From the NCBI GenBank assembly GCA_030141605.1, contig JAQGDQ010000163.1, positions 248,001 through 312,000 on the forward strand: 64,000 bases of DNA. The letters run 5' to 3'. Of the stretch, positions 30,266-39,200 are shown one piece after another; position 1 is the first letter of the stretch; the number at the start of each line of letters is the position of its first letter. Made by a program: the position numbers and the translations under genes. The notes beneath the pieces are model-generated. The model worked only from the letters and a program-made list of their open reading frames with translations. It did no database searches and was not told where the DNA came from. This stretch comes from Tubiluchus corallicola (lineage: Eukaryota; Animalia; Priapulida).

Positions 30266-33200
30266 CTATTTTTTCCAAAGCCCTAGCGCATCACCTATTG
30301 TGTGTGCTAGTGTCTTTGCTGTGCCTGAAAATGCATCGGCTATTCAAGTCAATAAAGTCATTTTAGGACTTTATAAATCTACTAACTACAGTAGGCCTAT
30401 GCTGTTGTTGCTGGGTCGATCAAGTATGAGGAATGTGCTATAGCATTATAATTATGTCAGCTGTAGGACATTCAATGGCCGTCAATGCTGCATTTTTCCT
30501 ACCAGCACATGTTAATTAGGCTTACAATCTGCTATTCTTGCTACACAGAATTAAACAAAAGACTTACTCATAAATACTCAAAGAATTACCCAGTAGACTA
30601 CTCAAAATAGCAGTTGTTCCACTGTTAAAACATTTTTATCCTACTGACTTTGTACACCTATATCTAAAGACAATTTGAACTGATCTACAGTAGGGGTGAG
30701 CATTCTCTACCAGAAATCGAATTCGAATCGAATCAAGTATGTGATATCAAACCGAATTTCAGTATTTCGAATTCTAATCTTTGAAATGTTTTCATACCCT
30801 CAGTAAAGAGCGACTTTACAAAGATGATGCATAGACCCTATTACTCGATTTTGTTCTGCAACGAAATCACTAATAGTTAGTTTGAAAATTGCACACAGAA
30901 ATCGCTACTAAATTGTGCTAATTGCGTGATATCTAAAACGTTTTAATGACAAAACAACGTGTGTGGTTGAAGTGCTGAATTATTCGAATTAAAAAACTCG
31001 TTAGAATCGAATTCGAACGTTCGATGCACATCCCTAGTCTGCAATAACAGTTAGAAATGATGAAGAACCAAGCTTTTGATACTGAGTGTGTAACATTAAC
31101 AGTTGCTTGCAAAATTCTATACAAAGCATTATGGCAAAACGAAATTACTAATTACCTGATTCAGGGTCAGAGGAGTCCGAGGAGTCAGGAAAGTATACAA
31201 TTTTCCAATGAGGTGACCTTATGTGAGGCACTTCTAATAGTGTTTTTAGTTCTTGTCCGAACTCCTTCATGTGTTCTCGCTTCTGTTCGGGACCAATAGA
31301 TTGCAATTCAGTAAACAGGAGAATATTTGCTGGATATTCAGCCAGGACACGATAATCCTAAAAAGTATTTAGTAAATCAGTGAAAAGTGACCTGCTTTAC
31401 AAATTTATCCCACAGAACTAGAAGAATAAATTTTTCGCAGTTTATGGAAACACTCTTACTGTAGTTGGTAATCACTAATTACCCAATTTTAATACAGAAC
31501 CTTCATTTAGGTTTATACTTTTAATTTCTAGCTTTTCTTTCAGTTCTTGGAGTGAAATAATGGTTGTAGCACTTTAATTAGCGAAAATTAATTTCATTAT
31601 CTTTGTGAAGTAAACCACAATGATTTATTAACGTCTGGCATTCACAGTCATGATCTGATTGTCAGTCAATATTTATGTTTGAAAATTCAACGATCATTTC
31701 GTTAAAAATTAATAAAAAATACACTTTTTGCGAGCATCAACTTTACTTAATTTTAAGTATTTGTGAGCTAAAAAACCTTGATCCCTGCACTTTAGAAGTA
31801 GACAAGTAGTTATAGTTTGTTTATCACTCTCACCTTGCAATCGTACGAAAATTGATAAACTGTCCGGCAGCCATATTCCCTTTCACGTCCGCCTCGCTTT
31901 AACTTTTTACTTGGTGATTTGTCAACTGCTTTTAGACTTCCATCTACTTTACTTAAGTCAGAGAAAACATTTGCATTCTCGGGAAGAATCATAATGAATT
32001 CAGTGCGAATTTCACAATTTATGGGCTCCTTTTTGAGTTTTTCTTTATACTCATCTAAGTTGTCTTTTGTGAAACCATCTGAATAAAACAGTTTGTTACG
32101 AGATTTATGGGAAAACATACTGTCAAATAAACGAAAAACTGTAAATTTTGTTGTCTTTCCGCTGTAGTTAGGGGGTGTGCATTTTCTATCAGAAAGCGAA
32201 TTCCAATTCCGATTCTGAATCGAATTCGCATTCAGTTTTAAAGAGTTTCGAATCACTAATAAAAAGCAATCCCACGCACATTGCTTGGCTTTGTTCTGCA
32301 GTAAAAACACTAAAATTTGTTTAAGAATTGTGCATAAAAATCGCATCCAAAATTTGCTAATTGCAAGATGTTTCAAACCATTTTAATGACAAAGAAATTT
32401 TGTAGTTAAACTGGTCAGTTATTCGAATCCACAATTTTAGCTTTGAATTCAATTCGAACTGAAAGGTGGCTGGTAAAAATGACGCAGGTAAAAGTAGCAC
32501 ATGAAATAATTGCACAGGAAAAACTGCCACCAATGGAAAAGTAGGTAAAAATGGCACAGGTAAATATGGCACAAATGGAAAAGTAGAAAAAATGGCAAAT
32601 CTGTTATACTGCACAATTGATTTCTATTGATACGTGTACGTATACAACTGATGCCAAGTCACCTTATAAGGTTATGCACATTAATAAGCAAAAGGTATAG
32701 ACAGTGATATATACACAGTTTTACAAGCGAGACTCTCGAAACTGAACCGGTAGTATGTAGAAGTCTACGAGGAGACAAAAAAGTACTAAATGTGATGTCC
32801 GATACGTCAGTCTAGAATATAAGAACTACCGAACAGCATTGCAACCCATTTTAATATCGCTGACTTTGTATTCTCGTATGATTTTTGTGTAGGACCCGTA
32901 CTTAGGCTGCATTAATAGCTTAATTTAGTTAATTGCTTATGTTAATTGAATGAGTCATTAGTTAATTTATTTACTATAACAGAGCAAGTTGTAAGTGAAG
33001 ATATATGAGCATACATCTAGTTAGCTCTGGGAAGGGTCCCACCTCATACCTGTCCTAAATCTCCTTTACAAGCAGGCAAGTGATTGGTTATACACTCAAC
33101 TGAACAGGCTAGCTAGCCAGTAAACCGTCGTGTTAAAGGACAAGGTCATCCAGTTTTACTTGTTCTAGGAATTGAAACCAGGTTCAACACTGTTTGTCGA

Positions 33201-36200: not shown

Positions 36201-39200
36201 GCATTTAAATGAAAACAGGATGATTTTTTTATACTGTACCTCACTTTGAAGCACAGCAGAAAGTATACATTTTACCGTACGTATATTATTGGCACCTATA
36301 TTAATGCCAAAGCATTTCTTGTAATTAAATAAGAGGTTAAAAATTTAATTAATGGAGTGATTAACTAATGATTGGTGATTACATCACAATTGAATATATT
36401 TTTTCATGGGCGTGTTTGCAAAATTGAAAATTGAAGTATTGTGCTACTGTATAACATTGACTTATACAAAAACTCCATAAATTTTAAGTTTAAAGTTTAA
36501 ATGTCAAGTTTAAAGCTAAGCTCACGCATGAGCTCTCGAACGTATGTGCTACGTCTCAACTGAACTCATTTGAACCCGGAGGTACTAGCGAATGTCAAAA
36601 TGCATGTAACAGCGAAGAACTAGCTGTGTGAATGCAAAATTACCATTCTTGCACGTACGCTTAATTGTTCTTTAGGTAAATCATTATTGGAAAAATAGTA
36701 TGTTCACTTTTAATATTTTATATCATATACTGTTTTGAGCTATAATAGTTTATAGGTCAAATTTAATGTAAAAGCAAGCTTTCTTTAATTAAAAGGCTAA
36801 CTGTAACTTAACATTTGACTAACTGCACTTTTCATCAAAACATTTTGTTCTATTTTCCTCGTGAAACTTCGGAAAATTGTTAGCTTCGATACCGTATCGT
36901 TTATGTGACGCTTCTTTTGTAAACAATGCTGCACTGCGAAATGTGACACATGACAAACGCAAGTGATGGCATAACTAAGGAGTTCCTAGCGTCATCTAAT
37001 GAATAAAACACGCGAAATCAAATGCAGGCTTTGTACGGAAATGACAGCTTTACACCCGACTAGACCACCAAGAAACAGTTAAAAGTATCAGAAAATCTTA
37101 GTTAAAGCATTTTCTTTCTGTTTTTATGTAAAACTAAAAGTTTATAAAGTAAACTGTACAGGACCCGCAGAAAAATTCACTACTAAAGCTGCTAAAATCT
37201 ACCTCTTTAAAAGTTACTTTACATACTGGTCCTACTACAACTACTTACATTACATAGGCATCAATTTTTGAATGTTAGACTAAGCCTGGAATTCTCCTGA
37301 TAGGACAATATGTAAATAAAGAAATACCGCGCTTTATTGCTTTTGCAACAACTTCATTTAGTTTGACAAGCTTGCTAGCCTCATCACTGGTACTTTGGTC
37401 TGACTCATCACTAGTGCTTTGATCTGAAACAGGAAACAGAAACAGATTTTCACAGTTACAGTTAAAAGTCTTAAATAGCTTTTAAATTAATTAGTGAATA
37501 TATATGGTTCACCCAAAAACGATTTGACACCGAATTTCTTTTTATTGGTCAAAATCACTAAGTGTGACGAGTAATTACCCTTGTATGGCAACAAAATACA
37601 ATGTCTCTGACATCCATTATTTTGTAACAGTTTGTTTACTTTTTGGCAGAATTTCTCTGCTGCTTTTTGTTTAACTAGAGTCTTATAGTTGCTGATGTTG
37701 TGTTCGTACAGTGTCTGTAAAGTAGCAGCTCCCTCCATCACTACATACTTGTCGATACCATCCTACAATCAAATTAGGTTACTATCAATTATCCACATAA
37801 TTTGATGATGTTTATGTGCTTTTTGCAAGCATTCATAAAAGTATAGTGTCTAACGAGGAGAGGAAGTCTTTGGAGAGAGAGAGAGAGAGAGAGAGAGAGA
37901 GAGAGAGAGAGAGAGAGAGAGAGAGAGAGAGAGAGAGAGAGAGAGAGAGAGAGAGAGAGAGAGAGAGAGAGAGAGAGAGAGAGAGAGAGAGAGAGAGAGA
38001 GAGAGAGAGAGAGAGAGAGATAACTAAATAAAGCAAACATTTTGTGCACTTTCACATTAGCGGAGGTAATTAGTCAATTTTATCAACATTTGAGTCAATT
38101 TGACATTTGTCCTTACCTCAGAGAATTTGTACACACACTGGTTGCCATAATCTCGTTTAACTTGACCAGCACGTGTTCGTTCTATACTGCCAATTTTCCC
38201 CACACATTCAACATTGTCATCTTCTAAGGTGAACTTTGAGATATAACAGCTTTCCGGACACAAGATCAGAAGCTTTTTGCTAGCTAATATTCGATTTGTT
38301 TCTTGCTCATACCTGATAACCAGTTGAGGGAAATCTAAGTGATCGAAAAAGAGAAAATTTAAAAATTTGATAAGATAGTGCTTCTGTCCTGTGCAAATGT
38401 AAAGGGCAAGTATGCAATGTGAGTAAATCGGTCATGAAACATTTTCCCAGAAAATTTAATTTTACTTAACAAAGAATTGAATATAGTATGATTGGAAAGA
38501 TTTTTAACAACAAAACATGTGAAATAAGTACTGCTTTACACAAGATTTTTATTTAACTTAGAAATAGAATCTAAAAATCTGATGTACTTTGTAATGTGGT
38601 TATTTGTATTTGTGCGAAAAAAGCTGCTAGCACACAATTTATTGATTCTAAACGTTTGTAGCCGCAACATTTAAAATCTCAGCAGACAAGAAACTTGCTA
38701 GAACCTGTTCAGCTGCAAATTAGGACTGTAAGACATAAGCAAGGTAGTGTGTATGTAGGTTTCCATTAATCAATGAAATATAAACCATGAATTTTCTAAA
38801 ACACTAACAACATACCATTGGAAGAAGAATCTTTGGCGTCTTCATCGCGATTTGCTGGCATAATCAGTGCCAAGTAGCCGTAGTAATAATTAGCTGCCAA
38901 ACCTTCGATCACATCATCGACATTTTCGATTCTATATGAAACTTCTGCATCTTTTAGCTTTTTGTAACAAATTGAGATTGTAGTTACATTGCTATAGTGG
39001 CTGTACAGTGTCATTTAGTGACTACTAATAAAGTTAAAATTAAAATTATTATGATATGTGCACAAAAATGATAGCAGGTGCGACAGATCAACAGTCTCCT
39101 TTGTGCGAAAGGCAGAGATAAACTGATTGTTTACAGAATCAAAACCTATTATAATAGTAACTTCGTGCAGGCCTATTATATGCTGTTGATGAGCACCCTC

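What the first reader, a model, noticed from the sequence alone, without database searches (positions are those of the whole stretch)
30266..38957. The two STING domains are asymmetric in ligand-pocket residues: possible single-chain pseudo-heterodimer
Seen, in human numbering. Domain A has N162/Y163/Y167, lid R-A-G-Q-V-K-R-D-Y (R232, R238 and Y240 kept) and E260-G-A-A-T-L-Q-T267. Domain B has S162/Y163/F167, lid R-G-G-R-E-R-E-Y (one residue shorter) and E260-Y-P-A-N-I-L-L. Both lack T263 and P264. Established: STING binds one CDN at a two-fold homodimer interface. Inference: A and B could fold intramolecularly into an asymmetric pocket for a non-canonical or mixed purine-pyrimidine CDN. That would leave one HEPN per pocket, so RNase activation would need ligand-induced oligomerisation. 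Alternatively, A-A and B-B pairings could read two ligands or cross-link chains into filaments.
Basis: partly seen in the sequence, partly recalled or inferred. Interest (0 to 1): 0.8.

Follow-up and report, generated by a model that had tools for sequence, protein, structure and literature searches.

The report
RNase head on twin STING sensors
In an unidentified animal, exons for a likely RNA-cutting (HEPN) domain are followed by two diverged copies of the STING cyclic-dinucleotide sensor domain; these likely form one protein whose two STING halves are predicted to pair with each other, so that an immune messenger would switch on an RNase directly, a combination I did not find described.

Summary
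The residue observation holds: every listed A and B residue is in the sequence, and the human numbering is supported by PDB alignments. The locus is a spliced animal gene: a CXorf38-like HEPN domain (RNNHAH), STING domain A, then STING domain B, with no transmembrane segment. A and B are 23% identical but share 7 of 11 pocket residues, so both look like working sensors. The main difference, N162 against S162, is a known linkage-specificity switch between natural homodimers (PMC9980059). The single chain is not shown. It needs one 62-nt linker exon that has strong coding potential but chance-level splice scores. HEPN-B and B-alone frames are also open, and no spliced read could be had. Back-to-back STING domains about 40 residues apart are annotated in Capitella, so the tandem is not new; the HEPN-STING fusion was not found in my searches. 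Odds: fused 0.65; fused and cis-paired 0.40. Most likely a dinucleotide-gated RNase, working like RNase L through a STING sensor. The scan had not noted this on other DNA.

The parts
45519..45624 (-). Exon 1, ATG start, first helix of the CXorf38-like HEPN domain
   Evidence: GT donor, phase 1; no Pfam hit of note
44757..44845 (-). Exon 2 of the HEPN region
   Evidence: summed splice score 22.4
43233..43346 (-). Exon 3, Cys-rich insert (predicted zinc ribbon) of the CXorf38-type HEPN
   Evidence: Pfam DUF4559 positions 47-97, E 0.06; five Cys seen in the sequence
41576..41725 (-). Exon 4 of the HEPN region
   Evidence: summed splice score 24.0
41344..41463 (-). Exon 5, carries D166, a possible partner of the catalytic His
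   Evidence: 32 residues before R198, against 28 between D134 and R162 in human CXorf38; equivalence inferred
39396..39542 (-). Exon 6, HEPN motif R-N-N-H-A-H (R198 at 39530, H203 at 39515); phase-0 donor
   Evidence: Pfam HEPN_Swt1 positions 82-107, E 0.18; motif fits R-phi-x-x-x-H
38816..38957 (-). Exon 7, STING A: stem helix with N162/Y163/Y167 and a 13-residue insertion after it
   Evidence: Pfam STING_LBD E 1.2e-4; its acceptor is weak, 3.2
38117..38334 (-). Exon 8, STING A: lid with R232, R238, Y240
   Evidence: Pfam STING_LBD E 2.4e-9, 37.2 bits
37579..37762 (-). Exon 9, STING A: E260-G-A-A-T-L-Q-T267
   Evidence: Pfam STING_LBD E 3.3e-6
37328..37423 (-). Exon 10, STING A: acidic loop and last helix; phase-1 donor
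   Evidence: donor score 4.9; the read-through tail scores as non-coding
35255..35316 (-). Exon 11, inferred linker exon (phase 1 to 0) needed for the A-B fusion; overlaps an alternative ATG (35313 or 35298) and phase-0 donor (35266) that would start B alone
   Evidence: for: codon score 0.62, above all 3586 intron windows, p 0.04 against composition shuffles; against: splice sum 8.6, not above chance cassettes in control introns, 8.2-13.6; lies at the edge of a low-copy repeat
34724..34817 (-). Exon 12, STING B: connector-like segment and stem helix with S162/Y163/F167; strong phase-0 acceptor
   Evidence: Pfam STING_LBD E 0.026
31834..32078 (-). Exon 13, STING B: lid R-G-G-R-E-R-E-Y, one residue short
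   Evidence: Pfam STING_LBD E 5.4e-5, 23.1 bits
31156..31357 (-). Exon 14, STING B: E260-Y-P-A-N-I-L-L267
   Evidence: no Pfam hit alone; aligns with exon 9 and, as a two-row profile, with PDB STING chains, best E 0.023
30266..30324 (-). Exon 15, STING B: last helix and stop codon; no C-terminal tail

Best explanation
The locus holds exons for a likely CXorf38-type HEPN RNase domain followed by two diverged STING ligand-binding domains, and it likely encodes one soluble chain in which A and B are predicted to pair in cis into a single dinucleotide pocket, so that ligand binding would switch the RNase on. Shown: the exons, the HEPN motif, two STING domains with kept pocket residues, no membrane segment. 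Inferred: (1) exon 11 joins A to B; (2) the 32-residue charged linker lets A and B fill the two halves of the usual STING dimer; (3) with S162 on one side and N162 on the other the pocket would hold a mixed-linkage (2'-5'/3'-5') dinucleotide in one orientation, and Ala at 263 on both sides would relax base reading, so 2'3'-cUA-like ligands are candidates as well as cGAMP; (4) the resting protein would carry one HEPN half-site, and ligand-driven side-by-side stacking of STING units would bring two HEPN motifs together into the composite RNase site. The result would be RNA destruction or translation shut-off in an infected cell, without a transcriptional relay.
For: Open 675-aa frame with GT-AG introns. 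Exon 11 has the highest codon score in the needed frame (0.62; intron maximum 0.51 of 3586 overlapping windows; top 1% of 12554 wider windows; p 0.04 against shuffles), while the rival ATG frame scores at the shuffle mean (0.37) and A's read-through tail scores -0.39, as low as 1 of 384 true coding windows. No room or sign of another effector domain between A and B: 2.5 kb, much of it repeats, no Pfam hit below E 0.1 in the 7 frames from that interval that I scanned. Back-to-back STING domains are annotated in Capitella (hits 13-195 and 236-431). A and B share intron phases, A263 and a one-residue insertion after Y240, as expected of an internal duplication whose copies could first pair in cis. 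HEPN catalysis needs two motifs. Effector-STING fusions are switched on by ligand-driven stacking (PMC9402430). S/N at 162 governs linkage reading (PMC9980059).
Against: Exon 11's splice score (8.6) is below all other internal exons (11.7-24.0, scored in-sample) and no better than the best chance cassette in control introns; summed contig depth over it is about 42 against 4-6 beside it, so it may be repeat-derived. Without exon 11 the A-to-B splice hits a stop at once, and HEPN-B (441 aa), B alone (210 or 215 aa) and HEPN-A (472 aa) are all open. The pocket is more conserved between A and B than the rest (7 of 11), which is what two self-sufficient homodimers would keep; no complementary loss of key residues is seen. 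S162 and N162 each occur in natural homodimers. The HEPN call rests on the motif and two weak Pfam hits (E 0.06, 0.18). No structure was modelled.
Confidence: 0.4

Rival explanations
1. B is not fused behind A. The locus makes HEPN-A, and B is made either from its own start in exon 11's other frame (a TM-less, effector-less STING domain) or as an alternative HEPN-B isoform by exon 6-to-12 splicing. HEPN-A and HEPN-B would be two dinucleotide-gated RNases with different linkage preference; B alone would be a decoy or dampening partner. A-B pairing could still occur in trans.
For: All these frames are open. Exon 6 ends and exon 12 starts in phase 0; exon 12's acceptor (9.3) is stronger than exon 7's (3.2); an ATG in good context with a 6.5 donor lies in exon 11. 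TM-less human STING isoforms, one from an internal promoter, inhibit signalling (PMC12181837).
Against: A's read-through tail looks non-coding and the ATG frame has no frame-specific codon signal. Tandem STING chains are annotated in other invertebrates.
Confidence: 0.3
2. One chain, but A pairs with A and B with B. The protein is a dimer or network with two pockets that read two ligands (A with N162 a 3'3'- or 3'2'-type, B with S162 a 2'3'-type). The HEPN pair is pre-assembled and switched allosterically, as in CARF-HEPN nucleases, or by filament growth.
For: Each domain keeps the full symmetric set Y163, Y/F167, R232, R238, Y240, E260. At 23% identity a hetero-interface is not assured. Coral paralogues with S or N at 162 are homodimers with different ligands. 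TIR-STING-TIR-STING chains in oyster, Lingula and Capitella look like doubled homodimeric units.
Against: A tethered duplicate would favour cis pairing from the start (inference). A ligand-free A-A dimer would hold two HEPN half-sites together all the time, which needs a further brake (inference).
Confidence: 0.25
3. The N-terminal domain is not an active RNase (an inactive or RNA-binding HEPN, or a separate upstream gene), and the STING domains act as adaptors or ligand sinks.
For: Pfam hits for the HEPN exons are weak; none in NCBIfam or among PDB relatives. Human CXorf38's RNase activity is predicted, not shown, in the passages read. An in-frame ATG lies at 39014 just upstream of exon 7.
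Against: The R-N-x-x-x-H motif is intact with the polar second residue; exons 6 and 7 are in phase across a 438-nt intron; exon 6's read-through tail scores lower than its exon.
Confidence: 0.05

Closest known systems
Metazoan and bacterial TIR-STING (Crassostrea gigas, PDB 6wt6/6wt7; Sphingobacterium faecium, PMC9402430)
   Same: Soluble enzyme-type domain placed N-terminal to a STING ligand-binding domain, no TM; activation by ligand-driven stacking is shown for the bacterial protein.
   Different: The head here is a HEPN RNase-type domain, not TIR; two STING domains follow one head.
Lophotrochozoan two-STING-domain proteins (Capitella teleta P002581, P008235, P011197; TIR-STING-TIR-STING of Capitella, Lingula, Crassostrea; supplement of PMC10732462, and PMC11103948)
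   Same: Two STING domains in one annotated chain; in two Capitella entries 40 residues lie between the Pfam hits.
   Different: No HEPN or DUF4559 in that table. I found no functional or structural study of them.
CXorf38 (DUF4559) family of HEPN proteins (PMC3710099)
   Same: R-N-x-x-x-H motif, Cys-rich insert, N-terminal position, fusion to immune modules in invertebrates.
   Different: [quoted passage not shown]
OAS-RNase L and CARF-HEPN nucleases (Csm6/Csx1)
   Same: A nucleotide second messenger gates a HEPN RNase. That RNase L's KEN domain and Csx1 are HEPN is in PMC3710099; the activation modes are recalled.
   Different: Sensor here is STING, the predicted ligand a cyclic dinucleotide from a cGLR or from bacteria.
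SAVED and Can1 sensors (recalled, no call)
   Same: A two-fold nucleotide sensor doubled into one chain, giving an asymmetric pocket: the precedent for the cis model.
   Different: CARF-derived folds in prokaryotes; nothing like it has been shown for STING in the papers I saw.
Coral Sp-STING1 and Sp-STING3, Drosophila STING (PMC9980059)
   Same: S versus N at 162 and changes at 263 set linkage preference.
   Different: TM-anchored homodimers on separate genes; Thr or Ser, not Ala, at 263 in the two coral proteins.

Membership tests
STING ligand-binding domain (Pfam PF15009) | Profile match above the curated cut-off (27 bits), domain A | tested here: met
   exon 8 alone 37.2 bits; exon 9 27.0; exon 7 21.9
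STING ligand-binding domain (Pfam PF15009) | Profile match above the curated cut-off, domain B | tested here: inconclusive
   single exons give 23.1 and 14.3 bits and the third none; the spliced domain could not be scanned; homology to A is clear (E 5e-11)
STING ligand-binding domain (Pfam PF15009) | Universal contacts: aromatic at 167 and 240, Arg at 238 (PMC9980059) | tested here: met
   A Y167/R238/Y240; B F167/R238/Y240
STING ligand-binding domain (Pfam PF15009) | GLAWSYY dimer stem (PMC12424679) and T263-P264 | tested here: not met
   A reads GLAANYY, B AMALSYF; both have Ala at 263 and no Pro at 264. Variants at these places occur in working STINGs, so this lowers 'canonical', not 'works like'
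STING ligand-binding domain (Pfam PF15009) | V-shaped dimer that binds a cyclic dinucleotide | not testable with these tools
   the spliced protein is in no database reached and so could not be folded; needs binding assays
Canonical TM-STING | Four N-terminal transmembrane helices | tested here: not met
   highest 19-residue hydropathy in the first 242 residues is 0.84
TIR-STING | N-terminal TIR domain | tested here: not met
   no TIR hit on exons 1-6
CXorf38/DUF4559-type HEPN | R-phi-x-x-x-H motif (phi = N, D or H) | tested here: met
   RNNHAH at 198-203; definition
CXorf38/DUF4559-type HEPN | Zinc ribbon inserted into the HEPN domain | tested here: inconclusive
   five Cys in exon 3, which matches DUF4559 positions 47-97 at E 0.06 only
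CXorf38/DUF4559-type HEPN | Whole-domain profile match above cut-off | not testable with these tools
   the domain is spread over six exons of 29-50 codons; only single exons could be scanned
CXorf38/DUF4559-type HEPN | Metal-independent RNase activity from a two-motif composite site | not testable with these tools
   bench assay needed
Single-chain tandem STING (Capitella type) | Both domains on one transcript | tested here: inconclusive

The most novel reading that the evidence does not exclude
An animal has built a one-protein suicide switch from cGLR-STING parts: a single-chain STING pseudo-heterodimer, the STING counterpart of a SAVED domain, reads one mixed-linkage cyclic dinucleotide in a fixed orientation and turns it into HEPN RNase activity by oligomerising. 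It would be an RNase L equivalent driven by cyclic dinucleotides, and the first asymmetric STING pocket.
Probability: 0.35. Interest if true: 0.9.

Novelty: new variant of a known kind. Interest (0 to 1): 0.7.

Why it matters
Animal STING is known as a membrane adaptor, with TIR fusions as the main exception. A HEPN-STING fusion would give an animal a direct messenger-to-RNase route like OAS-RNase L or type III CRISPR, and would say what some of the many invertebrate cGLR products do. If A and B pair in cis, it would be a natural asymmetric STING pocket: a ready test of how S162 and N162 read 2'-5' and 3'-5' linkages, an explanation for the unstudied tandem STING proteins of annelids, and a possible scaffold for ligand-specific sensors. 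Even if B is separate, HEPN-A is an effector-STING combination that I did not find described.

Tried and rejected
No whole genome is held. Transcript evidence: no RNA holder listed; run X1 gave unspliced, genomic-type contigs and X2 covered repeat stretches and none of the exons laid in 30000-37860; this is no evidence on expression. These blanks reflect short queries and show no absence. So family-wide residue frequencies, a tree, the organism and any A-B, A-A or B-B model are missing. Earlier scan notes: nothing on this genome or look-alikes; word searches gave only bacterial TIR fusions and one HEPN-NLR note. Rejected: B as a pseudogene (four open exons, kept pocket); a TM-STING reading; direct exon 10-to-12 splicing (stop); other linker or terminal exons for A (of 108 phase-1-to-0 candidates only one, a 26-nt piece inside a high-copy repeat, scored as high as exon 11). 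No cGLR/Mab-21 hit among the frames scanned in the window (102 of 132 frames of 62 aa or more outside the locus). Three papers asked for by id (Morehouse 2020, Burroughs and Aravind 2020, Burroughs 2015) are not held and may list STING fusions that I could not see.
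Full report
What the region is. The window is animal DNA: about 33% GC, short frames, spliced genes. No genome is held and the organism was not identified. On the minus strand from 45624 to 30266 I built a 15-exon model from GT-AG sites; it is open for 675 codons. Exons 1-6 (242 aa) end in R-N-N-H-A-H. Exons 7-10 are STING domain A, exons 12-15 STING domain B, and exon 11 is an inferred linker. 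No segment before domain A is hydrophobic enough for a membrane helix, and the chain ends just after B's last predicted helix.

The observation. The human numbering is backed by hmmsearch ranges against full-length PDB chains. Pfam STING_LBD hits three A exons (best E 2.4e-9) and two of the B exons scanned (best E 5.4e-5). A and B align at 44 of 193 identities, E 5e-11, far above 500 shuffles. They have the same intron phases (0-1-0-1), both have Ala at 263, and both have one extra residue after Y240 relative to the two PDB chains aligned through that stretch. They are therefore best read as an old internal duplication. B is under constraint: four open exons and 7 of 11 pocket positions identical to A against 23% overall (p 0.004). 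The asymmetry is limited to 162 (N/S), 167 (Y/F), 264, 267 and one lid residue. There is no complementary loss of key contacts.

What the pocket differences mean. In PMC9980059 (passages and section 9 read) the aromatic pair and the lid Arg are universal; S162 contacts the free 3'-OH of 2'3'-cGAMP; Asn at that place contacts a phosphate and goes with 3'3' preference in coral Sp-STING3 and with 3'2' preference in Drosophila; position 263 also shapes specificity. The same paper reports 2'3'-cUA and 3'3'-cUA from oyster and coral cGLRs. So the A/B difference is a known linkage switch. It fits a hetero-pocket for a mixed-linkage ligand (inference), and it fits two homodimers with two ligands just as well. 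It gives no specific support for a purine-pyrimidine pocket, although Ala263 on both sides would remove the Thr contact to guanine (inference).

The head domain. The motif fits R-phi-x-x-x-H (PMC3710099 and bioRxiv 10.64898/2026.05.28.728550, passages). Exon 3 has five Cys and matches DUF4559 at E 0.06; exon 6 matches HEPN_Swt1 at E 0.18. That DUF4559 is the CXorf38 family is recalled. PMC3710099 describes CXorf38 as a Swt1-like HEPN with an inserted zinc ribbon, predicted active, fused in invertebrates to dsRBD, NACHT and DEATH domains. NCBIfam and the PDB gave nothing. I put the HEPN assignment at about 0.9 and activity lower. Catalysis needs two motifs.

Is it one chain? This is the weak link. 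Exon 10 spliced straight to exon 12 meets a stop, so a phase 1-to-0 exon is needed. Of 108 candidates, exon 11 ranks second by splice score (8.6), but that is no better than the best chance cassettes in the four control introns that exclude this interval (8.2-13.6) and below the other internal exons (11.7-24.0, in-sample). Summed contig depth suggests it lies at the edge of a low-copy repeat. In its favour, a codon model trained only on two other genes of the window scores it 0.62 in the needed frame: above all 3586 overlapping intron windows, in the top 1% of 12554 wider windows, p 0.04 against its own shuffles. The rival ATG frame scores at the shuffle mean, and A's read-through tail is as low as 1 of 384 coding windows. 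Much of exon 11's score comes from its purine-rich make-up, and the model is weak on true exons (1 of the 14 others reaches p below 0.05). Three other readings are open: HEPN-A (472 aa), HEPN-B by exon 6-to-12 splicing (441 aa) and B alone (210 or 215 aa). No RNA run settled it. Precedent helps: in the supplement of PMC10732462 (file 2, parts 49-51 of 77 read) two Capitella entries have STING hits at 13-195 and 236-431 and a third at 20-196 and 193-356, with no TIR, and Capitella, Lingula and Crassostrea have TIR-STING-TIR-STING; PMC11103948 (passages) also notes oyster proteins with two STING and two TIR domains. These are gene-model annotations. I put fusion at about 0.65.

How it most likely works. 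Given fusion, a 32-residue, 56% charged linker behind a duplicated dimerising domain favours cis pairing (inference; geometry not modelled). SAVED and Can1 are recalled precedents for doubled nucleotide sensors. Cis pairing also has a regulatory logic: it would leave one HEPN half-site per resting molecule, and ligand-driven stacking of STING units, shown for bacterial TIR-STING and chicken STING (PMC9402430, passages), would assemble the RNase. I give this 0.40, B as a separate or alternative product 0.30 (TM-less inhibitory isoforms exist in humans; PMC12181837, passages), fused but homotypic 0.25, and an inactive head 0.05. All but the last share the core claim, a dinucleotide-gated HEPN RNase.

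Novelty. Tandem STING domains are already in annotation tables, though the main text of PMC10732462 has no hit for 'two STING', 'multiple STING' or 'HEPN'. For HEPN with STING: full-text searches returned no paper with 'HEPN-STING' or 'STING-HEPN' among the 16 listed of 17, and none that I opened describes the fusion; PMC3710099 has no 'STING' in its main text; five supplement files of PMC10732462 have no HEPN or DUF4559. PMC8195603 (passages) lists HEPN and STING as separate partners of TRADD-N domains. Known effector heads are TIR, bacterial hydrolases and peptidase and fungal PNP (PMC12424679, passages). PMC8662601, PMC9334734 and PMC5869526 were seen as passages and add TIR-STING or TM-less STING only; supplement 5 of PMC9980059 (part 1 of 9) gives gene counts only, and its large PDF supplement could not be read. 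A search for single-chain or heterodimeric STING gave four irrelevant listings. Three key papers were not held, and InterPro architectures were out of reach, so the fusion may be on record elsewhere. Verdict: a new variant of effector-STING fusion; interest 0.7.

Noticed in passing
window 10687-18501 (+): Spliced protein-kinase gene with a 627-codon last exon; Pfam Pkinase on five exon frames. The NUAK/ARK5-like label is recalled.
   Followed up: no
window 21317-23383 (-): 688-aa C2H2 zinc-finger open frame, about 13 finger pairs by Pfam; the gene nearest downstream of the STING locus.
   Followed up: no
window 61532-63279 (+): Two exons of a p53-family DNA-binding domain.
   Followed up: no
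window 46795-48187 (-), 50375-51417 (+), 59604-59990 (+): Broken non-LTR retrotransposon reverse-transcriptase fragments; RVT_1 hits for the first two, the third by resemblance only. One lies about 1.2 kb upstream of the HEPN start codon.
   Followed up: no
window 38816-39014 (-): Exon 7 has the weakest acceptor of the confident exons (3.2) and an in-frame ATG lies 57 bases upstream of it, so an A-first product is formally open. A also has a 13-residue acidic insertion after the stem helix.
   Followed up: partly
window 37328-37423 (-): Exon 10 holds a short direct repeat (two copies of D-Q-S-T-S-D-E) rich in Ser and acidic residues before the last helix; possible phosphorylation loop. An AATAAA lies inside its coding end at 37338.
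   Followed up: no
window about 37870-38030: Long TC dinucleotide repeat of about 160 bases in the intron between exons 8 and 9 of domain A.
   Followed up: no
supplement of PMC10732462, file 2, rows for Capitella teleta: Three entries with two STING hits and no TIR: the best ready-made test set for the cis-pairing idea, since these proteins are in public databases.
   Followed up: partly
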